A stretch of 57,708 nucleotides of DNA from Actinomycetota bacterium (GCA_016870535.1 VGBK01000004.1:1-57708); one strand, 5' to 3'; counted from the first letter of the stretch, positions 18,641 to 25,940 are shown. Numbers and translations are program-made. Notes: generated by a model from the sequence alone, not told the origin.

Positions 18641-19756
18641 TCAGCGGCCCGGCGGACCGCCGCCCGGTACGGAAGGGGCCTCGCCGCGGGAGGCGGCGGT
18701 GAGGCGGCGGCCCTCTTCGACCAGGGCCTCCACCATCTCGGCCTCGGGCACCACCCGCACCACCTTCCCCTCGACGAACAGATGGCCTTTGCCCTTGCCG
18801 GCGGCGATGCCCAGGTCGGCCTGCCGGGCTTCCCCGGGCCCGTTCACCACGCATCCCATGACCGCCACCTGCAGGTTGAGGCCCTCCGCCTGCAGGCGCC
18901 GCTCCACCTCGCGGGCCACGGCGATGACGTCGACCTCGGCTCGCCCGCAGGAAGGGCAAGCGATCAGGTCCAGGCCCCGGCGTTCCCGCAGGCCGAGCAC
19001 TTCGAGAAGACGCCGCCCCGCCTCGGCTTCCTCCACCGGGTCGGCGGTGAGGGAGAAGCGGATGGTGTCGCCGATGCCCTCCAGCAGCAGGGCGGCCACC
19101 CCGGCAACCGACTTGATGAGACCCGACGGCGGCGGCCCGGCCTCGGTGACCCCGAGGTGGAGGGGATGGTCGGTGCGCTCCGCCAGGAGGCGGTAAGCCG
19201 CCACCATCGAAGGCACGTGGGAGTGCTTCACCGAGATCTTCACGTTCTGGCACCCGGCCTCCTCCAGGAGGCGCACCTCGTGGAGGGCCGACTCCACCAG
19301 GGCCTCCGGCACCGGACCCCCGTAACGCGCCAGGAGGTCGGGCTCCAGGGAGCCGGCGTTGACCCCCACCCGAATGGGTACGCCGCGGGCGGCGGCCGCC
19401 GCTGCGACTCGGCGAATGTGCTCCGCGTTGCGGATGTTGCCCGGGTTCAGGCGCAGCCCCGCCACCCCGGCCTCGAGGGCGGCCAGCGCCAGTCGGTGCT
19501 GAAAGTGGACATCGGCCACGATGGGGACCGGTGAGCGCGACACGATCTCGATCAGCGCGGCCGCCGCCGGAGCGTCGTTGCAGGTGACCCGCACGATGTC
19601 GGCCCCGGCGCTGCGCAGGGCGTACACCTGGGCCACCGTGGCCTCCACATCGGAGGTGCGGGTGGTGGTCATCGACTGCACGGTGACCGGCGCCCCATCC
19701 CCCACGGGCACCCCGCCCAGGGAGATGCGCCGGGTGCGGCGCCGGGAGAAGGTCAT
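18641..19756 (-). CDS. ispG: 4-hydroxy-3-methylbut-2-en-1-yl diphosphate synthase
   Basis: VQSMTTTRT, CPSCGR and GCVVNGPGE motifs. Trimmed from track ORF 18641..20863 to the ATG at 19756. Confidence 0.95.
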   Translation of the reverse strand: MTFSRRRTRRISLGGVPVGDGAPVTVQSMTTTRTSDVEATVAQVYALRSAGADIVRVTCNDAPAAAALIEIVSRSPVPIVADVHFQHRLALAALEAGVAGLRLNPGNIRNAEHIRRVAAAAAARGVPIRVGVNAGSLEPDLLARYGGPVPEALVESALHEVRLLEEAGCQNVKISVKHSHVPSMVAAYRLLAERTDHPLHLGVTEAGPPPSGLIKSVAGVAALLLEGIGDTIRFSLTADPVEEAEAGRRLLEVLGLRERRGLDLIACPSCGRAEVDVIAVAREVERRLQAEGLNLQVAVMGCVVNGPGEARQADLGIAAGKGKGHLFVEGKVVRVVPEAEMVEALVEEGRRLTAASRGEAPSVPGGGPPGR

Positions 19757-20853
19757 CCGAGCCTGAAGGGATGGGCGATGTCGAGGTACACGGCGAGCAG
19801 GCCGATCACCACCAGGAAGGCGATCACCGTCGCCGCCACCGGCACCAGGCGACGCACGTCGGCGGGGCGTCCGCGCAGCTTTTCGTAGAGGGCCACGGCG
19901 AAGTGCCCCCCATCCAGGGGATACAGAGGAATGGCGTTGAGCAGGCCCACGAAGACCGCCACGTAGGCCACCAGCTGCACGGCGTACGACACCCCCAAGT
20001 CGCCGGCGATCCCCACCAGCCCGATGGGGCTCACCGGGCGGTTGTCCCCTACCTGGTCGGCATCGCCCCCCACTACCGCGGCCACCAGCCGCGGGACCCC
20101 GGTCACCAGATCCCAGAGCCCTCTCCCGCTGGCCACCACGGCGTTGCCCAGGGAGCTGCCGGCCTCGCCCAGGCCCGCCACCGGCCCGGCCCGCGCCGTT
20201 CGGGTCCCGGGGGCGATCCCCAGGTAGCCGCGCTCGCCGCCGGCGCCGTCGTCCACCGCGGCGAGGGTGATCTCTATGCTGAAGGCGCGCCCTTCGCGCT
20301 CCACCCCAAGGGACACCGTCTGCCCCGGCCGTTCGACGATGGCCTCCACCAAGTCGCCCCACTCCGGGGTGGGTGTGCCGGCCAGGGAGATCACCGTGTC
20401 CCCGGCGAGGAGGCCGGCCACCGCCGCCGGCGTGGGTGATCCGTCGTCCATGGCGGCCTGGACGTCGGCCACGGTGGTGGTGCGCACCGGCATGCCGATG
20501 CCGGAGGCGGCCAGGTAGAAGAGCAGGAAGGCCAGAGGGAAATGGGTCGCCGAACCGGCCAGCACCACCAGCGACTTGGCCCAGAAGGGCTTGTCCCGGT
20601 AAGTGCGGCCTTCGTCCTCCGGCGCCACCTCCTCCATGGGGTTCATCCCGGTGATCCGCACATAGCCCCCGAGAGGCAAGGCCTTGACGCCGTACTCCGT
20701 CTCGCCGCGGCGGGTGGACCACAGCCGGGGACCAAAGCCGAAGAAGAACTCCGTGGCCTTCATCCCCACGGCGCGCGCCGCGAAGAAGTGGCCCGCCTCG
20801 TGCACCATCACGATGACGATGATCCCGAGGACCACCAGGAATCCGCCGCTCAT
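19753..20853 (-). CDS. rseP: M50 site-2 protease (RseP/Rip1-like) with PDZ domain
   Basis: HEAGHFF zinc motif, and a later NxxPxxxLDGG motif (NAIPLYPLDGGH). ATG at 20853, with an alternative TTG at 20898. ATGA overlap with ispG. Confidence 0.9.
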   Translation of the reverse strand: MSGGFLVVLGIIVIVMVHEAGHFFAARAVGMKATEFFFGFGPRLWSTRRGETEYGVKALPLGGYVRITGMNPMEEVAPEDEGRTYRDKPFWAKSLVVLAGSATHFPLAFLLFYLAASGIGMPVRTTTVADVQAAMDDGSPTPAAVAGLLAGDTVISLAGTPTPEWGDLVEAIVERPGQTVSLGVEREGRAFSIEITLAAVDDGAGGERGYLGIAPGTRTARAGPVAGLGEAGSSLGNAVVASGRGLWDLVTGVPRLVAAVVGGDADQVGDNRPVSPIGLVGIAGDLGVSYAVQLVAYVAVFVGLLNAIPLYPLDGGHFAVALYEKLRGRPADVRRLVPVAATVIAFLVVIGLLAVYLDIAHPFRLG

Positions 20854-20901
20854 CCGCTGCCACTCCGCACTCGGGAGCCCCAAGTTACCCGGCAGCAACG
20901 T

Positions 20902-22077
20902 CTAGCCGCAGCTACCGACCGCCTCCCGGGCCGCCGCCCGGGCCTCGGCGTCGACCGCCAGCACCTCGGCGACGCTCCCTAGATGACGCCGGGGGATGGC
21001 CTCCAGCACCCGCTCGACGACCCCGGGGATGCGGGTGAAGCCGATGCGCCCTTCCAGGAACGCCCCGACGGCCACCTCGTCGGCGGCATTGAGCACGGCG
21101 GGAGCCGACCCCCCGGCCCGGCCTGCCTCGTACCCGAGACGCAGGCAAGGGAAGGCAACCGGGTCGGGCGCCTCGAAGGTGAGGCTGCGGCCGGCCAGGT
21201 CCAGGAGCGGGGCCATCCCGGGCGCGCGGCGGGGGAAGGTCAGGGCGTACTGGATGGGGATCCTCATGTCGGGAGGCCCGAGTTGTGCCTTCAGGGAACC
21301 GTCGACGAACTCCACCAGGCTGTGCACCACGCTCTGCGGGTGGATCAGCACCTCGATGCGCTCGTAGGGCAGGCCGAACAAGAGGTGGGCCTCGATGACC
21401 TCGAAGGCCTTGTTCATCAGCGTGGCGGAGTCGACGGTGATGCGGCGGCCCATGCGCCAGGTGGGATGAGCCAGCGCCTCGGCCACCGTCACCCGCTCCA
21501 GGTCGGCTCGGGCCCGCCCCAGGAAAGGGCCCCCGGAAGCCGACAGCACGATCCGGCGCACGAAGGCGATATCCTCGCCCGCCAGGCACTGCAGCAGGGC
21601 AGAATGCTCCGAATCCACCGGAAGCAGTTCCCCCCCGCCCCGGCGCCGGGCTGCCTCCACCACCGGCCCGCCCGCCACCAGGCTCTCCTTGTTGGCCAGG
21701 GCGAGACGGTTCCCTGCGTCGAGGGCAGCCACCGAGGCGGCCAGCCCGGCGGACCCCACCACCCCGTTGAGCACCACGCACCCCGGGGTGCCGGCCAATT
21801 CGATCACCCCCTCCGCACCGAAGCAAACCCGCCTGCCCAGTTCCGCGACGAAGCGCTCCCTCTCCTCTCCGGTGGGGGCGGCCACCGCCACCGTCGCGCC
21901 GGGGTGGGCGGTCCCGAGGCGCAGCAGGGAGGCGGAGCCCCGGGCGGCCGCCAGACCCCGCACCTCCATCCCCAGGCCGGCGGCCACCTCGAGCGCCTGC
22001 CGCCCGATGGAGCCGGTGGCCCCGAGGACGATCAGCGGCCTCAGCGCAGCAGCCCCATCGTCTCGAAGAGCACCCAC
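20902..22077 (-). CDS. dxr: 1-deoxy-D-xylulose 5-phosphate reductoisomerase
   Basis: LGATGSIG, LANKESLV and a conserved C-terminal domain. The GTG at 22077 overlaps the cdsA 3' end by 37 nt, and no downstream ATG/GTG precedes the GATGSIG motif. Confidence 0.93.
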   Translation of the reverse strand: MGALRDDGAAALRPLIVLGATGSIGRQALEVAAGLGMEVRGLAAARGSASLLRLGTAHPGATVAVAAPTGEERERFVAELGRRVCFGAEGVIELAGTPGCVVLNGVVGSAGLAASVAALDAGNRLALANKESLVAGGPVVEAARRRGGGELLPVDSEHSALLQCLAGEDIAFVRRIVLSASGGPFLGRARADLERVTVAEALAHPTWRMGRRITVDSATLMNKAFEVIEAHLLFGLPYERIEVLIHPQSVVHSLVEFVDGSLKAQLGPPDMRIPIQYALTFPRRAPGMAPLLDLAGRSLTFEAPDPVAFPCLRLGYEAGRAGGSAPAVLNAADEVAVGAFLEGRIGFTRIPGVVERVLEAIPRRHLGSVAEVLAVDAEARAAAREAVGSCG

Positions 22078-25000
22078 GCCGCGGGCAAGACGAACAGGAA
22101 GGCGTCGATGCGGTCGAGGATGCCGCCGTGACCCGGGAGGATCGACCCCATGTCTTTGATCCCCAGGCTGCGCTTCACCATCGACTCGGCCAGGTCGCCC
22201 AGCGGCGCCATCACCGCCACCACGAGCCCCAGAATGGCCCCGGCCCGCACGCCCACCTCGTCGAAGAGGTAGCCGGCCGCCACCGCGGCGCCTATGCCCA
22301 GGATCACTCCCCCGGCCAGTCCCTCCCAGGTCTTCTTGGGCGAGAGCACCGGGGCCATGGGCCGCGCCCCCCAGGCCCGGCCGGCGAAGAAGGCGCCCAC
22401 GTCGGCGGCGATCACGGTGAAGGCGACGGCCAGAACCAGCACGCGGAACTGGGGTGAGGCGGCAATTAGGAAGGCAAACCCTGCCGTCCCCGTGACCCAG
22501 AGCATGCCCAGGATGGTGAGCCCCCCATTGGTCAGCGCATCACGGCGCCGGGGCGCGAAGGCGTAGTAGAAGAACGACAGCACCGTGACCGCCACTACCG
22601 CGGTGGGGATGGCCACCGGGCCGTAGAACCACATCCCCACCAGCAGGCCTACGCCCCCCGGAAAGCCGAACAGGGCCAGGGGCTGGTATCCGCTGCGCCG
22701 CAGCGCGCCGTAGAACTCGCCGAGGCCGAGCACGGCCAGCAGCCCCACGAATCCGGCGAAGAACTCACCCCCCACCCAGAGGGAGCCGAGCAGCAGGGCG
22801 GCCAGCACCATTCCGGTCGCCACCCGCACCGGCAGATCGGAGCGGGGCCGCGCCGCCACCTCCTCGTCCGCTCCGAGGTGGGCCACATCTTCGAACCCGA
22901 CCACGCCGGACTCCAGCCCGAGCATGGGTGCGGCCAGGGCCTGCAACTCGGTCTCGCCGGTATCGGCTGCGGCCACCTCCTCGGCCAGGCCGCGGTGCTC
23001 CATGGTCACCGCCCCCGCCAGGGTCTCCTCGCTGATTGGACCCGGGCCGGAGGGCGGCCTCTCGAAGTCGAAGACCGGAGGGGGCATCTCCCGGGTGCGC
23101 CCGGTGACACCGGCGCCCTCCCCAGGAGCGGCAGCGTCGGCCACCGGAAGAACCGGCCCATATCGAGGGGGATCCTCCGGCGCCCGCCCCGCCGACGGCC
23201 GGGGCGGCGGCATCCCCGGCTCGGGGAAGGCCTCCCACCCCGCCGCCTCCAACTCCCCGGCCCCCAACCCGCCGGACCCGGCCCCGGCAGCCTCCTCCGT
23301 CTCGTCCCTCAACTCCGCCAGGGGCTCCCCGGGCTCCGGGAAGGGCACCCAACCCGCCTGGCGGAAGCCCTCTTCCTCCCAGTCGTCCTCGTCCCCCTCC
23401 TCGTCCTCCTGTTGCCCCTCAGCCCGATCCCCCTCCCCGGAGACCTTCGCGGCGCCGCCCTCTTCTCCCCACGCCGGCATCGCCGGCGGCAGCTCCGGCG
23501 GCCGGGCAGCGGCCGCGCTCCCCGACGGCTCTCCGTCGGGAACGCCCGGCCATCCCGGCTCTTCTGCCCACTCCTCCTCCCAATCCTCCTCGGGGAGAGT
23601 GACGGGCGGGACCGCAACCTCATCCTCGTCGATCTCGGCGTACCACCCGGCCGCCGGGGGCTCTGCCTCGCCGGACCACTCGGCTTCGCCCCACTGGCCT
23701 CCGTCTTCTTCCTCCCCCGGGGCCGCCTCGCCTGCACCCGCGGGTACCGGGAAACCCTCCGCCACCCCCGTTGCGCCCTCCGATCCGCCCGCCTGCCAGG
23801 CATCCCAGGCGGCTTCGGTGGCGATCGCGTCGTCGGCCCCGGCGTCCGGTCCCGGCTGCGGCAGGAGTTCCTCCACCGCCGGGGGCAGCCACGGCGGCGG
23901 CCGCGCCGCCTCCTCCTCATCGGCCACCCCGGCCTGTGCCGGCTCCACCTCGCGGCGGCGGCCCAGCCAGCCGCGCCGACGCGGCTTCATGGGAGATGCT
24001 GTCGGCACGGCTTCCGCCTCCGGTGCTGCCGCGGTCGCCGCAGGCTCCGCCGCCGGTGCTGCCGGGGTCGCCGCGGGTTCCGCCGCCGGGGGCAGCGCCG
24101 ACCCGGCCGCAGGTGAGGCTGGGGCCGGCGCTCCCTCCACGAAGGCCAGCCACTCATCCACCTCGGCCTCTACCTCGGCCTCAACCTCAGCCCCCACCTC
24201 AGGCTCCACCTCAGGCTCCACCTCAGCCCCCACCTCAGCCCCCGCCGCCTCGAGGTCTTCGCCGGCCTCGGGCAGGGCCGAGTCCGGGGAGCCGGGCACC
24301 GGCCCGGTGGGCGTCGCCGGCGCCGGGGGCTCCCAGGCCGCCAGCACCAGTCCCGAAGCATCTGGGCCGGCGGGGGCACCGTCGTCGGAGGCGGTCTCCT
24401 CCGGCCACGACTCCGACGCGACGCCTCCCTCCCGGGCTCCGGTGGCCTCCTCGCTGCCCGGCCGCCCCCATTCGCCGGGCTCCCCCGTCGGCTCGACATC
24501 GGCGAGGGCAGGAACCCAAGGCAGCGTGGGCAGATCCTCCTGCACCGGACCCGCCTCGCCGGGTTCGATGACCTCCACCTCCGGCGCTTCGCCCAGCTCG
24601 GCCAGCAGGGCAGAGGCCGCCTGCTCGAGATCCGCTACCGCCGTCGAGAGACCGGGCCCCGCATCCTCTTCCGGGAGCTCCTCGGGCGCCTCACCACCCT
24701 CGCCGGTCTGAACCGGGGGCAGGGGCGGGCCCATCGCCGACTCGCCCGGCACGGCCGGGAGAGGCGGTGGCGCCGCCGTCGCGCTCAACAGATCCAGCGG
24801 GATCAGTGCGGCTGCCGCCGGGGCCGCCTTCGGCTCCTCGCCGCCCTCCCCGGGCTCCTCGCCGCCCTCCCCGGGCGGCGCCGCGGTCGAGGGACCCGCG
24901 GAGAGATCCGCGGAGACCAGAGACGCCGGAGGCGCCGCCGCCGGGGCCGCCGCCTCCCACCACGGGAAGACCGGGGCGGCCGGCGCCGCCTCCTCCTCTG

Positions 25001-25388
25001 CATCGGGCTCGTCAACCCACTCGACGGTCCGGAGCGCCGCCTCCGGATCGAGAGGCTCCTCCCTCTGCCCCTCCTCCGCCTCGAGTCCGGCTGCCCACCA
25101 GCCGGCAGGCTCCGCCTCGTCCGAGGGGAGAGGCACGGTCTCTCCTCCCCCCCCCGGTTCCGCCACCCCTTCGCTCCCTGAGCCGCCCCGACGCGCCCCG
25201 CGTCCGAAGCGACGCCGGCGCGAGGAGCGCCCCGGAGTCTCCTCCGGACCGACCGGCGTGGCGGCGTCCTCCGCCTCGCCGGAGGCTTCGGAGGACCATC
25301 CGGGATGCCAAGGATCACCCGGATGAGGGTGGAACTCCTCGTCGTCTCCTCTGCGGCTCACCGTTCCTCCTCGCCGCCCCGCCCGCAC
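22041..25388 (-). CDS. cdsA: Phosphatidate cytidylyltransferase (CdsA) fused in frame to an ~820-aa acidic low-complexity N-terminal region
   Basis: The C-terminal ~290 aa is canonical CdsA (multi-TM, SxxKRxxGxKDxGxxxPGHGGxxDRxD = SMVKRSLGIKDMGSILPGHGGILDRID). The ORF stays open upstream to a GTG at 25388, which directly abuts the frr stop. A canonical-length start would be the ATG at 22925. Confidence 0.8.
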   Translation of the reverse strand: MRAGRRGGTVSRRGDDEEFHPHPGDPWHPGWSSEASGEAEDAATPVGPEETPGRSSRRRRFGRGARRGGSGSEGVAEPGGGGETVPLPSDEAEPAGWWAAGLEAEEGQREEPLDPEAALRTVEWVDEPDAEEEAAPAAPVFPWWEAAAPAAAPPASLVSADLSAGPSTAAPPGEGGEEPGEGGEEPKAAPAAAALIPLDLLSATAAPPPLPAVPGESAMGPPLPPVQTGEGGEAPEELPEEDAGPGLSTAVADLEQAASALLAELGEAPEVEVIEPGEAGPVQEDLPTLPWVPALADVEPTGEPGEWGRPGSEEATGAREGGVASESWPEETASDDGAPAGPDASGLVLAAWEPPAPATPTGPVPGSPDSALPEAGEDLEAAGAEVGAEVEPEVEPEVGAEVEAEVEAEVDEWLAFVEGAPAPASPAAGSALPPAAEPAATPAAPAAEPAATAAAPEAEAVPTASPMKPRRRGWLGRRREVEPAQAGVADEEEAARPPPWLPPAVEELLPQPGPDAGADDAIATEAAWDAWQAGGSEGATGVAEGFPVPAGAGEAAPGEEEDGGQWGEAEWSGEAEPPAAGWYAEIDEDEVAVPPVTLPEEDWEEEWAEEPGWPGVPDGEPSGSAAAARPPELPPAMPAWGEEGGAAKVSGEGDRAEGQQEDEEGDEDDWEEEGFRQAGWVPFPEPGEPLAELRDETEEAAGAGSGGLGAGELEAAGWEAFPEPGMPPPRPSAGRAPEDPPRYGPVLPVADAAAPGEGAGVTGRTREMPPPVFDFERPPSGPGPISEETLAGAVTMEHRGLAEEVAAADTGETELQALAAPMLGLESGVVGFEDVAHLGADEEVAARPRSDLPVRVATGMVLAALLLGSLWVGGEFFAGFVGLLAVLGLGEFYGALRRSGYQPLALFGFPGGVGLLVGMWFYGPVAIPTAVVAVTVLSFFYYAFAPRRRDALTNGGLTILGMLWVTGTAGFAFLIAASPQFRVLVLAVAFTVIAADVGAFFAGRAWGARPMAPVLSPKKTWEGLAGGVILGIGAAVAAGYLFDEVGVRAGAILGLVVAVMAPLGDLAESMVKRSLGIKDMGSILPGHGGILDRIDAFLFVLPAAWVLFETMGLLR
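24010..24090 (-). repeat. ~2.4 x 33-nt in-frame tandem repeat
   Basis: GCTTCCGCCTCCGGTGCTGCCGCGGTCGCCGCA followed by GGCTCCGCCGCCGGTGCTGCCGGGGTCGCCGCG and a partial third copy. Encodes the AAEPAAT(P/A)AAP repeat. Confidence 0.85.
24159..24242 (-). repeat. 7 x 12-nt in-frame tandem repeat (xACCTCrGCyCC)
   Basis: Units CACCTCGGCCTC, TACCTCGGCCTC, AACCTCAGCCCC, CACCTCAGGCTC x2 and CACCTCAGCCCC x2. On the minus strand they encode GAEVGAEVEPEVEPEVGAEVEAEVEAEV. Confidence 0.9.
24832..24873 (-). repeat. Perfect 2 x 21-nt tandem repeat
   Basis: GGCTCCTCGCCGCCCTCCCCG occurs twice. Encodes GEGGEEP GEGGEEP. Confidence 0.9.
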
Positions 25389-25940
25389 CTAGACCTCGAG
25401 GAGCTCGGCTTCCTTGCGAGCGAGCACCTCGTCGATCCGAGCCACGTGGCGGTCGGTGATGTCCTGCAGTTCCTTCTCGGCCCGCCTGATGTCGTCGTCG
25501 GAAACCTGGCCCTCCAGGGACTCCAGGGCCACCTTCGTGTGGCGCCGCACGTTGCGTGCCGCCACCCGGGCCTCCTCGGCCATGTGACGCACCAGTCGGA
25601 TGAGCTCGCGCCGGCGCTCCTCGGTCAGCGGCGGGAAGGCCAGGCGGATGACGGTGCCGTCGTTGCTGGGGTTCAGTCCCAGCTCGGAGGCGAGAATGGC
25701 GCGCTCGATGGCCCCGATAGTGGAGCGGTCGTAGGGATGCACCAGCAGCAGCCGCGCCTCGGGGACCGAAAGGGAGGCCAGTTGCTGCAGCGGGGTAGGG
25801 CTCCCGTAGTAGTCCACCGTGATCCGATGCATGATCGCCGGATTGGCCCGGCCGGTGCGGACCGTGGCGAAGTCGGCCTGCAGGTGGGTGACCGCCTGGT
25901 CCATCTTGGCCTCCCCCTCCAAGAGGGTCTCCTCGATCAC
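25389..25940 (-). CDS. frr: Ribosome recycling factor
   Basis: 183 aa. The pattern MIEETLLEGEAKMDQAVTHLQADFATVRTGRANPAIM is typical of RRF. Confidence 0.97.
   Translation of the reverse strand: MIEETLLEGEAKMDQAVTHLQADFATVRTGRANPAIMHRITVDYYGSPTPLQQLASLSVPEARLLLVHPYDRSTIGAIERAILASELGLNPSNDGTVIRLAFPPLTEERRRELIRLVRHMAEEARVAARNVRRHTKVALESLEGQVSDDDIRRAEKELQDITDRHVARIDEVLARKEAELLEV

What the first reader, a model, noticed from the sequence alone, without database searches (positions are those of the whole stretch)
22926..25388. CdsA is preceded, in the same open frame, by ~820 codons of acidic Trp-studded low-complexity sequence with tandem repeats
What the sequence shows:
- Canonical CdsA needs only about 294 codons, from the ATG at 22925.
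- The frame nevertheless stays open for another 2.46 kb, up to a GTG that directly abuts the frr stop codon. No other credible gene fills this space.
- The translation is Glu/Asp/Pro/Ala/Gly-rich with recurring Trp-acidic motifs: DWEEEWAEEPGW, QWGEAEWSGE, AAGWEAFPEPG and FRQAGWVPFPEPGEP.
- It is not the Arg/Pro/Gly junk seen in off-frame ORFs, and third codon positions remain mostly G/C.
- It contains at least three in-frame tandem DNA repeats (7x12 nt, 2.4x33 nt, 2x21 nt), suggesting a rapidly evolving disordered domain.

Inference: I do not know of a lipid-synthesis enzyme (CDP-diacylglycerol synthase) carrying a giant cytoplasmic acidic tether. It could be a scaffold or condensate-forming region, or an independently translated acidic protein sharing the frame.
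Basis: partly seen in the sequence, partly recalled or inferred. Interest (0 to 1): 0.75.

Follow-up and report, generated by a model that had tools for sequence, protein, structure and literature searches.

The report
CdsA enzyme with giant acidic disordered tail
A membrane enzyme that makes the precursor of most phospholipids (CdsA) here carries a real, translated, about 840-residue acidic, floppy N-terminal arm with a dozen conserved short motifs; related bacteria (Acidimicrobiia) all have shorter or longer versions, and nobody has described it or knows what it does.

Summary
One open frame (22041..25388, minus strand) joins about 840 non-membrane residues to a canonical CdsA core. The real start is the GTG at 25361, which has a conserved GAGGAGG ribosome-binding site, not the GTG at 25388. 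The ATG at 22925 lies inside a conserved block and is not a domain boundary.

The extension is translated. At least 13 full-length orthologs (606-1275 aa) keep the frame open, including one at 64% GC whose other five frames carry 6-38 stops. About a dozen short peptide islands recur in the same order, with free synonymous change.

The arm has net charge -135 and is 3.4% Trp; Trp is its best-conserved residue type. AlphaFold predicts disorder apart from three short helices. The three tandem repeats are window-specific spacer expansions. No Pfam, PDB or other protein family matches.

Seventy-three Acidimicrobiia/Actinomycetota loci all have CdsA extensions of 94-1011 aa, nearly all acidic. A juxtamembrane block of about 50 residues is as conserved as the catalytic residues.

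The best reading, which is inferred, is a cytoplasmic polyanionic tether carrying linear motifs and two cationic patches, broadly like the FtsY A domain. Its function is untested. I rate it a new variant of a known enzyme, of moderate interest.

The parts
22041..25361 (-). Complete cdsA gene as supported here: GTG start, 1106 codons, TGA stop at 22041-22043
   Evidence: ORF. Conserved start. Identical length in the independent assembly L085/P0001.
25366..25372 (-). Shine-Dalgarno GAGGAGG, 4 nt upstream of the GTG at 25361, inside the 27-nt frr-cdsA spacer
   Evidence: The same GAGGAGG-plus-GTG arrangement occurs in 7 orthologs.
25290..25361 (-). N-terminal island MSRRGDDEEFHPHPGDPWHPGWSS (aa 1-24)
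   Evidence: Nearly invariant in 7 orthologs with free third-position change. Present in 23 metagenome loci and 4 database fragments.
25182..25229 (-). Cationic patch 1, RSSRRRRFGRGARRGG (aa 45-60)
   Evidence: One of only two positively charged segments in 845 residues. Conserved in 6 of 7 clade members.
25092..25106 (-). Island AGWWA (aa 86-90)
24954..24974 (-). Island PVFPWWE (aa 130-136)
24832..24876 (-). 21-nt tandem repeat x2.1, encoding GEGGEEP twice; a window-specific spacer expansion
   Evidence: TRF, 100% match. Absent from orthologs.
24789..24809 (-). Island ALIPLDL (aa 185-191)
24588..24638 (-). Island VADLEQAASALLAELGE (aa 242-258), a predicted helix
   Evidence: Conserved. AF2 helix 239-255, a local pLDDT peak of about 61.
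24510..24533 (-). Island LPTLPWVP (aa 277-284)
   Evidence: In the relative P0003/L003 this unit is itself tandemly expanded about 4 times.
24157..24242 (-). 12-nt tandem repeat x7, encoding (A/P)EV(E/G) units (aa 374-401); window-specific, abuts the EVDEW island
   Evidence: TRF. Absent from orthologs. The only 2 nt differences from L085 lie here, at 24203 and 24205.
24132..24164 (-). Island EVDEWLAFVEG (aa 400-410), a predicted helix
   Evidence: [DE][DE]W..[FY] present in 7 orthologs. AF2 helix 391-409, pLDDT 68-72.
24009..24089 (-). 33-nt tandem repeat x2.3, encoding AAEPAATPAAP units; window-specific
   Evidence: TRF. Alignment.
23949..23987 (-). Cationic-aromatic patch 2, KPRRRGWLGRRRE (aa 459-471)
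   Evidence: [RK][RK][GA][WLI][WFL] plus an Arg run in all 7 clade members. It is the second of the two positive segments.
23880..23903 (-). Island RPPPWLPP (aa 487-494)
23787..23819 (-). Island TEAAWDAWQAG (aa 515-525), a predicted short helix
   Evidence: AF2 helix 514-523.
23550..23684 (-). Composite island AEWSGE...GWYAEIDEDEVAVPPVTLPEEDWEEEW (aa 560-604)
   Evidence: W.A..DED is conserved in 7 orthologs with synonymous change. Also present in P0018, P0019 and P0029.
23319..23357 (-). Island AGWVPFPEPGEPL (aa 669-681), first copy of GW..FPEPG
23208..23243 (-). Island AGWEAFPEPGMP (aa 707-718), second copy of GW..FPEPG
23061..23087 (-). Island MPPPVFDFE (aa 759-767)
22860..23042 (-).
   Evidence: T786, E788, A793, G815, F823 and D825 are invariant in 105 homologs. 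The block lies outside Pfam PF01148. AF2 gives two short helices at pLDDT 50-72.
22044..22841 (-). CdsA catalytic membrane core (aa 841-1106)
   Evidence: PF01148, E = 5.7e-52. Matches 4Q2E/4Q2G by sequence and by fold, target TM-score about 0.81. pLDDT above 90.
25389..25940 (-). frr (ribosome recycling factor), the upstream neighbour; its stop is at 25389-25391
   Evidence: PF01765 in the orthologous loci.

Best explanation
Shown: cdsA (25361..22041, minus strand) encodes one 1106-residue protein. Its last ~265 residues are a complete, canonical CDP-diacylglycerol synthase membrane core. Its first ~840 residues are a translated N-terminal arm specific to this lineage. By homology with TmCdsA topology, the arm is cytoplasmic and leaves the enzyme at the rim of the cytoplasm-facing substrate funnel. 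The arm is an intrinsically disordered polyanion (net charge -135). It is built of fast-evolving Ala/Pro/Gly/Glu spacers that grow and shrink by indels and tandem-repeat slippage. These spacers separate about a dozen short conserved islands, mostly Trp/Phe-acidic, three of them short helices. There are two conserved Arg-rich cationic patches, and a juxtamembrane block of about 50 residues that is as conserved as the active site. Acidic extensions of 94-1011 aa are the rule for CdsA across Acidimicrobiia and neighbouring Actinomycetota. Inferred: the arm works as a flexible electrostatic tether that presents short linear motifs. The two cationic-aromatic patches (RRRRFGRGARRG and RRRGWLGRRR) are the likeliest contacts with anionic membrane lipid or with an acidic partner. 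The Trp/Phe-acidic islands are likely docking sites for proteins. The juxtamembrane block next to the funnel is the likeliest element to affect catalysis or dimer contacts directly. The net effect would be to localise CdsA, to regulate it, or to gather partners at the site of CDP-DAG synthesis. Spacer length would be only loosely constrained. The closest mechanistic precedent is the acidic disordered A domain of the SRP receptor FtsY.
For: Translation and selection. A conserved SD and GTG lie right after frr in 7 orthologs. The frame is open in at least 13 full-length orthologs of 606-1275 aa. L008, at 64% GC, has no stops in 755 codons while its other five frames have 6-38. The islands are invariant at the amino-acid level with free third-position change: 55 extra synonymous codon types over 57 island columns. 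dN/dS is 0.29-0.65 in the arm, 0.24 in the juxtamembrane block and 0.14 in the core. Anatomy. Composition, charge and the absence of any TM segment before aa 843. Only two cationic segments. Trp is the best-conserved residue type, 4.0/7 against 2.1-2.6 for Ala/Gly/Glu/Asp. AF2 gives pLDDT below 50 for nearly all of residues 1-777, except helices at 239-255, 391-409 and 514-523, which coincide with islands. Island order is conserved. The repeats are window-specific insertions between islands. Distribution. In 73 loci the extension is 94-1011 aa (median 269), and all but two are net-negative. Juxtamembrane residues are invariant in 105 homologs. Topology and position. The TmCdsA N-terminus is cytoplasmic, and the N-terminal part of M1 with the B-loop encloses the PA tunnel (PMC4083444). 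Precedent. The FtsY A domain is acidic and disordered, binds lipid through a positively charged N-terminal region and an MTS, and acts as an electrostatic tether (PMC5094494).
Against: No functional data exist, and all relatives are uncultured MAGs. Spacer dN/dS (0.55-0.65) overlaps the wrong-frame controls (0.55-0.71), so much of the length may be neutral. Low pLDDT in the arm partly reflects the shallow alignment there. Even with 105 sequences, the juxtamembrane block is only marginally ordered in a monomer model (pLDDT 50-72), so its docking onto the core is not shown. The cationic patches are too short to score as classical amphipathic helices, apart from residues 50-63. No partner is identified. 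No other protein anywhere shares the motifs, so a shared-partner argument cannot be made.
Confidence: 0.55

Rival explanations
1. Tolerated filler. The arm is translated but mostly functionless. In a ~75% GC genome stop codons are rare, so replication slippage and indels inflate a short ancestral acidic linker. Only the N-terminal peptide and the juxtamembrane block matter.
For: Length varies enormously, 606-1275 aa within the clade and 94-1011 aa across the class. The tandem repeats are window-specific. Spacer dN/dS of 0.55-0.65 is close to the wrong-frame controls. The 606-aa member L004 lacks many islands.
Against: About a dozen islands keep their sequence and order across orthologs whose spacers cannot be aligned, with synonymous turnover. 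Trp, Phe and Arg are selectively conserved. The frame is maintained at 64% GC, where about 20 stops would be expected. A strongly acidic character is kept in 71 of 73 loci.
Confidence: 0.22
2. Two products. Besides the full-length protein, internal initiation (for example at Met759, Met787 or Met813, the last being the ATG at 22925) yields a canonical short CdsA, so the arm is present on only part of the enzyme pool.
For: In-frame Met codons exist near the arm/core junction. Glu-Glu codons (GAGGAG) create many SD-like sequences inside the arm; this is seen directly in the sequence and was not scored.
Against: Met813 is part of the conserved A.M.G motif and lies downstream of the invariant T.E..LA segment, so starting there would cut a conserved block. 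No conserved internal SD-plus-start arrangement was found, unlike the one at 25361.
Confidence: 0.1
3. Condensate or scaffold. The arm is a sticker-and-spacer polymer: 26 Trp and two Arg patches in flexible spacers drive membrane-associated phase separation or clustering of lipid-synthesis enzymes.
For: Multivalent aromatic residues are spaced along a disordered chain, with two Arg-rich patches. The enzyme is dimeric in the TmCdsA crystal (PMC4083444), which would add valency.
Against: A net charge of -135 with only 33 basic residues strongly disfavours homotypic association without a polycationic partner. No partner is known and nothing here tests it.
Confidence: 0.07
4. FtsZ-tail mimic. The island DEDEV.VPP imitates the actinobacterial FtsZ C-terminal peptide and binds SepF, bringing CdsA to the division site.
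For: The Mtb FtsZ tail is ...DDDDVDVPPFMRR (PMC10213792). The C. glutamicum CTD is DDLDVPSFLQ, with D436, P438 and F440 conserved (PMC7118173). The window has DEDEVAVPPVTL, and the Asp and Pro positions are conserved in the clade.
Against: The strictly conserved Phe position holds V, A, S or V in this clade. The motif is internal, not C-terminal. The FtsZ and SepF of these organisms were not examined.
Confidence: 0.04
5. Annotation artefact. The 2.5 kb upstream region is a non-coding spacer that happens to be open in a high-GC genome, and CdsA starts near residue 770-840.
For: Long spurious ORFs are common here, for example the 595-aa antisense ORF at 22924..24711. The codon log-odds score is weak in the first ~90 codons. 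JGI gene calls on short contigs give proteins of about 350 aa.
Against: Peptide-level conservation with synonymous change from residue 1 onward. A conserved SD and GTG. An open frame in at least 13 orthologs, including the one at 64% GC. The ~350-aa calls come from contigs of 1.8-2.6 kb that are cut off at the end. The antisense frames are not consistently open.
Confidence: 0.02

Closest known systems
Bacterial CDP-diacylglycerol synthase CdsA (Pfam PF01148; Thermotoga maritima TmCdsA, PDB 4Q2E/4Q2G)
   Same: The C-terminal 265 residues are a full CdsA. They show a Pfam hit, the signature S.VKR....KD.G..LPGHGG.LDR.D, both Asp residues of the catalytic dyad, and a 9-helix fold matching TmCdsA at a target TM-score of about 0.81. 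The operon context pyrH-frr-cdsA-dxr-rseP-ispG is the usual one.
   Different: TmCdsA has about 20 residues before M1, whereas this protein has about 840. The arm and the conserved juxtamembrane block match nothing in Pfam, NCBIfam or the PDB.
A domain of the E. coli SRP receptor FtsY (PMC5094494)
   Same: Both are N-terminal, strongly acidic, intrinsically disordered regions of a membrane-associated protein. Both have small positively charged segments embedded in or flanking the acidic chain. In FtsY those segments bind lipid while the acidic centre stays disordered and acts as an electrostatic tether. This is a similarity in how the arm may work.
   Different: There is no sequence homology. 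The FtsY A domain is about 200 aa on a soluble GTPase, whereas this arm is about 840 aa on a polytopic enzyme that is already membrane-embedded, so membrane targeting itself cannot be the purpose. Trp-acidic islands are not a feature of FtsY. Lipid binding is untested here.
C-terminal peptide of actinobacterial FtsZ, the SepF-binding landing pad (PMC7118173, PMC10213792)
   Same: There is local resemblance: D-[DE]-V-x-V-P-[PS] in an acidic context (searches compared with 26).
   Different: The essential Phe is missing, and the motif is internal and not C-terminal. This is a lead only.
[quoted passage not shown]
   Same: Same general phenomenon: a long, conserved, disordered N-terminal extension added to a universally conserved membrane protein in one actinobacterial lineage (abstract seen).
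   Different: The abstract describes that extension as positively charged, and it is on a DNA translocase. This one is polyanionic and on a lipid-synthesis enzyme. I did not read the paper beyond its abstract.

Membership tests
CdsA / CTP_transf_1 (PF01148) | Profile match above the curated cutoff | tested here: met
   177.6 bits against a cutoff of 24, ORF residues 854-1109, profile positions 2-262 of 264. The NCBIfam equivalog PRK11624 matches only partially, 90.5 bits against a cutoff of 385; that model is built for the E. coli type.
CdsA / CTP_transf_1 (PF01148) | C-terminal signature S-x-[LIVMF]-K-R-x4-K-D-x-[GSA]-x2-[LIF]-[PGS]-x-H-G-G-[LIVMF]-x-D-R-[LIVMFT]-D (pattern recalled from PROSITE) | tested here: met
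   The sequence reads SMVKRSLGIKDMGSILPGHGGILDRID (aa 1060-1086). These positions are invariant in 105 homologs.
CdsA / CTP_transf_1 (PF01148) | Catalytic Asp-Asp dyad that coordinates Mg2+/K+ (TmCdsA D219 and D249, PMC4083444) | tested here: met
   D1056 and D1086 align with chain residues D239 and D269 of 4Q2G, which correspond to native D219 and D249 if the chain has a 20-residue tag offset (my inference from 290 versus 270 residues)..
CdsA / CTP_transf_1 (PF01148) | Nine-helix fold of TmCdsA | tested here: met
   Foldseek against 4Q2E/4Q2G: E = 3e-9, target TM-score 0.79-0.82. Core pLDDT is above 90.
CdsA / CTP_transf_1 (PF01148) | Enzymatic activity (CTP + phosphatidate -> CDP-diacylglycerol) | not testable with these tools
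   Needs an enzyme assay or complementation.
FtsY-A-domain-like acidic tether (a functional analogy, not a homologous family) | Strongly acidic, intrinsically disordered N-terminal region | tested here: met
   Net charge -135; the Uversky charge-hydropathy plot places it on the disordered side. pLDDT is below 50.
FtsY-A-domain-like acidic tether (a functional analogy, not a homologous family) | Positively charged segment(s) that bind anionic phospholipid | tested here: inconclusive
   Two conserved cationic patches exist. Lipid binding itself cannot be tested here.
FtsY-A-domain-like acidic tether (a functional analogy, not a homologous family) | Sequence homology to the FtsY A domain, or attachment to an SRP-GTPase NG domain | tested here: not met
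   No Pfam or NCBIfam SRP hit. The exhaustive search with the arm found only its own family.
FtsZ C-terminal peptide (SepF-binding motif) | Conserved Asp, Pro and Phe (C. glutamicum D436, P438, F440) at the extreme C-terminus | tested here: not met
   Asp and Pro are present. The Phe position holds V, A, S or V in clade members. The motif is internal.

The most novel reading that the evidence does not exclude
The acidic, motif-bearing N-terminal arm, together with the invariant juxtamembrane block at the mouth of the substrate funnel, is a previously unrecognised regulatory or organising module of phospholipid synthesis found across Acidimicrobiia. One possibility is an electrostatic sensor: its Arg/Trp patches bind anionic lipid (the products downstream of CDP-DAG) and so feed back on CdsA activity. 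Another is a tether that recruits partner enzymes or division and growth machinery to the site of CDP-DAG synthesis.
Probability: 0.25. Interest if true: 0.7.

Novelty: new variant of a known kind. Interest (0 to 1): 0.5.

Why it matters
CdsA catalyses the committed step to all CDP-DAG-derived phospholipids. It is normally a bare membrane enzyme of about 270-300 residues with no known regulatory domain in bacteria. Here a whole bacterial class attaches a conserved, cytoplasmic, polyanionic arm to it, three times the size of the enzyme in this window. A strictly conserved, unannotated block also sits next to the active-site funnel. If the arm regulates or localises CDP-DAG synthesis, it would be a new control point in bacterial membrane biogenesis. 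It would also be a clear bacterial example of an IDR that keeps its short linear motifs while its spacers turn over. In practice, the result also shows that gene callers and readers should not trim such high-GC N-terminal extensions: the ~350-aa database entries for close relatives all come from contigs of 1.0-2.6 kb that are too short to hold the full gene.

Tried and rejected
(1) The word-indexed homolog search with the full protein was swamped by low-complexity words and returned only 3 hits. Searching with the C-terminal 347 residues solved this.

(2) The DNA-level indel-phase test against L001 was uninformative. Only 22 of 37 gaps were multiples of 3, because the low-complexity spacers misalign. 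I replaced it with protein-guided dN/dS plus wrong-frame controls and codon inspection of the islands.

(3) The arm has no known domain. Pfam, NCBIfam and PDB sequence searches found nothing, whether for the window or for nine other extensions.

(4) Exhaustive phmmer of the arm against 1.84 billion representatives gave five hits, all N-terminal fragments of the same family. No other protein type shares the motifs. The motifs are also unique within the window.

(5) The FtsZ-tail or SepF mimic idea was rejected as a match, because the essential Phe is not conserved.

(6) An antisense gene was rejected. The 595-aa plus-strand ORF is a high-GC shadow, and antisense frames are broken in the orthologs (7-9 stops each in L008).

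(7) Assembly artefact in the repeats: a second assembly reproduces all copy numbers, with 2 substitutions inside the 12-nt array. It may derive from the same or a sister population, so long reads would still be the definitive check.

(8) No structured RNA: Rfam found nothing in the whole window.

(9) Literature: no paper links CdsA to a disordered extension or to Acidimicrobiia.

(10) Folding the juxtamembrane block with 105 sequences did not give a confident docked structure (pLDDT 50-72).

Full report
1. THE OBSERVATION

The minus strand carries an uninterrupted ORF at 22041..25388, 1115 codons long. It lies between frr (25389..25940) and dxr, in the usual rpsB-tsf-pyrH-frr-cdsA-dxr-rseP-ispG arrangement. 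Pfam recognises only ORF residues 854-1109 as CTP_transf_1, with E = 5.7e-52. The complete 290-residue Thermotoga CdsA chain (4Q2E/4Q2G) aligns to protein residues 841-1102. The AlphaFold model of the core superposes on those structures with a target TM-score of about 0.81. So roughly 840 residues precede a complete enzyme.

- 12 nt x 7.0 at 24157-24240
- 33 nt x 2.3 at 24013-24089
- 21 nt x 2.1 at 24832-24876

Third-position GC is 0.73-0.95 all along the frame. With a codon model trained on six neighbouring genes, the ORF's own frame is the best of six in 34 of 36 windows, although only weakly in the first ~90 codons.

2. IS IT TRANSLATED?

In a 77% GC sequence an open frame alone proves little; a 595-aa antisense ORF overlaps this region. 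The comparative evidence, however, is decisive.

(a) Protein searches and scans of genomes and metagenomes recovered at least 13 full-length orthologs whose cdsA frame is open from just after frr. They are: the window (1106 aa), L001/P0002 (1139), L005 (1275), L006 (1079), L008 (1016), L007 (855), L021 (982), L004/P0026 (606), L086 (1130), L088 (835), L089 (1027), L090 (1036) and L091 (964).

(b) In L008 the arm is only 64% GC. The cdsA frame has no stops in 755 codons, while the other five frames have 6-38. About 20 stops would be expected by chance, giving P about 2e-9.

(c) All seven orthologs checked share a GAGGAGG Shine-Dalgarno 3-5 nt upstream of a GTG, inside a ~25-nt frr-cdsA spacer. 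In the window that GTG is at 25361, not 25388.

(d) Peptide islands are conserved with free synonymous change. For example, HPGDPWHPGW (residues 13-22) is nearly invariant in seven orthologs, while its codons vary as CAT/CAC, GGT/GGC/GGA/GGG, GAT/GAC and CCT/CCC/CCG. Over 57 island columns there are 55 extra synonymous codon types.

(e) Against L001, dN/dS is 0.29-0.65 along the arm, 0.24 in the juxtamembrane block and 0.14 in the core. Wrong-frame controls give 0.55-0.71 and contain 7-14 stops.

(f) A separate assembly (L085, run SRR16108674) is 99.97% identical over 7.2 kb with no gaps. It differs at only two nucleotides, both inside the 12-nt array. The repeat copy numbers are therefore reproduced.

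The non-coding-spacer reading is effectively excluded. The ATG at 22925 encodes Met813 inside the motif A-x-M-x-G, downstream of residues that are invariant in 105 homologs. It is not a natural start for the enzyme.

3. ANATOMY (protein numbering from the GTG at 25361)

Residues 1-765 contain 16.9% Glu, 5.1% Asp, 19% Ala, 16% Pro, 13% Gly and 3.4% Trp (26 residues). Only 33 residues are basic, there is no Asn or Cys, and the net charge is -135. The charge-hydropathy plot puts the region on the disordered side. The first hydrophobic stretch begins at residue 843.

AlphaFold2 (56-sequence alignment) gives pLDDT below 50 and no secondary structure for almost all of residues 1-777. The exceptions are three short helices at 239-255, 391-409 and 514-523. 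The core has pLDDT above 90.

Alignment of seven clade members shows the same ordered series of islands, separated by spacers that cannot be aligned and are rich in indels:
- N-terminal MSRRGDDxGFxPHPGDPWHPGW
- cationic patch 1, RRRRFGRGxRRG (45-60)
- GWWA
- FPWW
- LIPLDL
- helix ADLExAAxALLAExGE
- LPxLPW
- helix EVDEWLAFVEG
- cationic-aromatic patch 2, RRRGW[FL]xRRRR (459-471; present in all seven)
- PPPW
- EAAWxAWQ
- AEWxGE...W[YF]AE[IV]DEDEVxVPPxxLPE[ED][ED]W
- two copies of GWExFPEPG
- FDFE
- the juxtamembrane block

The three predicted helices coincide with islands. Trp is the best-conserved residue type in the arm (4.0 of 7 identical), followed by Phe and Arg; Ala, Gly, Glu and Asp score 2.1-2.6. 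The two Arg patches are the only positively charged segments in 845 residues.

The three tandem repeats encode GEGGEEP x2, (A/P)EV(E/G) x7 and AAEPAATPAAP x2.3. All of them fall in spacers and are absent from the orthologs. The relative P0003/L003 has its own four-fold expansion of a ~34-residue unit. The arm therefore grows by slippage between fixed motifs.

4. HOW WIDESPREAD IS IT, AND DOES ANYTHING ELSE RESEMBLE IT?

In 73 Acidimicrobiia/Actinomycetota MAG loci that contain both frr and cdsA, the pre-membrane extension is 94-1011 aa, with a median of 269. It is net-negative in all but two loci, and those two have doubtful start calls. Sub-clades have different N-terminal signatures: EDLFEDLDKFFAPIQDVDWPE; EGVRIIGAEEA; and MADNKRRGLFGKGS...SIFDLFEPP.

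The window's clade has the longest arms (591-1011 aa before the first TM segment).

The juxtamembrane block (residues 774-834) is present in homologs down to about 43-45% core identity. Across 105 sequences T786, E788, A793, G815, F823 and D825 are invariant. That is as conserved as the catalytic residues, yet the block lies outside PF01148. With that deep alignment AlphaFold still gives it only pLDDT 50-72, with two short helices. That pattern would fit a segment that folds on a partner, on the dimer or on the membrane.

None of ten extensions tested has a Pfam domain. Nothing in the PDB matches the arm. An exhaustive phmmer search of 1.84 billion representative proteins with the arm found five proteins, all N-terminal fragments of this same family. 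In the metagenome scan, every locus carrying the N-terminal motif continued into the same type of arm, and, where the contig allowed, into CdsA. The module is therefore lineage-specific and exclusive to CdsA.

5. HOW IT MOST LIKELY WORKS

The following is established or follows directly from homology:
- The TmCdsA N-terminus is cytoplasmic.
- The substrate funnel opens to the cytoplasm and is walled by the C-terminal domain and the N-terminal domain (M1).
- The N-terminal part of M1, together with the B-loop, encloses the PA tunnel (PMC4083444).

The arm therefore emanates from the rim of the active-site funnel into the cytoplasm.

The rest is inferred. The pattern of conserved aromatic/acidic islands in rapidly changing spacers is what an IDR carrying short linear motifs looks like. 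The two conserved cationic(-aromatic) patches in an otherwise polyanionic chain are the best candidates for contacting anionic lipid.

The nearest mechanistic precedent is the FtsY A domain. That domain is acidic and disordered. It binds lipid through a positively charged N-terminal segment and an MTS, while its acidic centre stays disordered and tethers the protein electrostatically (PMC5094494).

CdsA is already an integral membrane protein, so the arm cannot be needed for membrane targeting. More plausible roles are localisation, partner recruitment, or lipid-dependent regulation of the gateway to anionic phospholipids. The juxtamembrane block is the element best placed to act on catalysis. 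I put about 0.95 on 'real, translated, selected IDR extension' and about 0.4 on the tether/motif/regulatory mechanism.

6. RIVALS

Neutral filler is the main rival (0.22). The spacers are close to neutral and the length is very variable. However, the ordered islands, the selective conservation of Trp, Phe and Arg, the maintained acidity and the open frame at 64% GC all argue for function in at least the islands.

The other rivals are internal initiation giving a second, short isoform (0.10, not exclusive), condensate scaffolding (0.07; the -135 charge argues against self-association), an FtsZ-tail mimic (0.04; the Asp and Pro match but the essential Phe does not), and annotation artefact (0.02).

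7. COMPARISON AND NOVELTY

The catalytic part is an ordinary CdsA, and all the family features I could test are met. The arm and the juxtamembrane block have no described counterpart. Searches for CdsA or CDP-DAG synthase together with disordered, N-terminal extension, Acidimicrobiia or Actinobacteria found no relevant paper. Extended proteins are present in databases, annotated simply as phosphatidate cytidylyltransferase.

I classify this as a new variant of a known kind. Interest is moderate (0.5). The size, about three times the enzyme, the class-wide distribution and the invariant juxtamembrane block would surprise a lipid-synthesis specialist. But the function is unknown, no cultured host exists, and long low-complexity extensions are a recurrent feature of high-GC Actinomycetota.

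Noticed in passing
window 22860-23042 (protein aa 774-834): A juxtamembrane block of about 50-60 residues directly N-terminal to TM1 is invariant at T786, E788, A793, G815, F823 and D825 across 105 CdsA homologs down to 43% identity. It lies outside Pfam PF01148 and has no annotation. It may deserve its own family model.
   Followed up: partly
L023-L046, L049/L075/L078/L052, L041/L047/L048/L059/L067/L070/L073/L076/L077 (5' ends of the cdsA ORFs): Other Acidimicrobiia/Actinomycetota sub-clades have their own conserved N-terminal signatures on the CdsA extension: EDLFEDLDKFFAPIQDVDWPE; MADNKRRGLFGKGS...SIFDLFEPP; EGVRIIGAEEA. Aromatic-acidic motifs and a KRRGLFGKG-type cationic patch recur, which suggests convergent or shared motif types.
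   Followed up: partly
L003:639-4205 (ENA ERZ25039527 contig_13410; P0003): This relative carries a ~34-residue unit (LPDLPWVVEGPGAEPGYLPEVGVPEEGSAAGGGE) repeated about four times. The gene is broken by frameshifts into a 963-aa call and a 191-aa CdsA call. These are probably assembly errors in a repeat-rich gene.
   Followed up: no
L077:4161-6920: The cdsA ORF of an Iamiaceae MAG is 920 aa with the CdsA domain at residues 281-536, leaving about 380 extra C-terminal residues. This is either a fusion with the downstream gene or a lost stop codon.
   Followed up: no
window 20902-22077 (dxr) against 22041-22043 (cdsA stop): The longest dxr ORF (GTG at 22077, 391 aa) overlaps the 3' end of cdsA by 37 nt. 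In L001 the dxr call starts 72 nt after the cdsA stop and is 356 aa. The true dxr start in the window is probably further downstream.
   Followed up: no
window 18641-20863 (minus strand): The 740-aa ORF that ends in ispG (GcpE) has an Arg/Gly-rich N-terminal half that overlaps rseP (19753-20898) in another frame. This is a typical high-GC over-extension; the real ispG start is near MTFSRRRTRRISLGG.
   Followed up: no
window 24203 and 24205: The only two differences between the window and an independent assembly (L085, SRR16108674) over 7.2 kb fall inside the 12-nt repeat array, changing Glu-Pro to Gly-Ala. This looks like a swap between repeat-unit variants or strain microheterogeneity.
   Followed up: yes
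window 1-57708: No Rfam family reaches its gathering threshold anywhere in the 57.7-kb window.
   Followed up: yes
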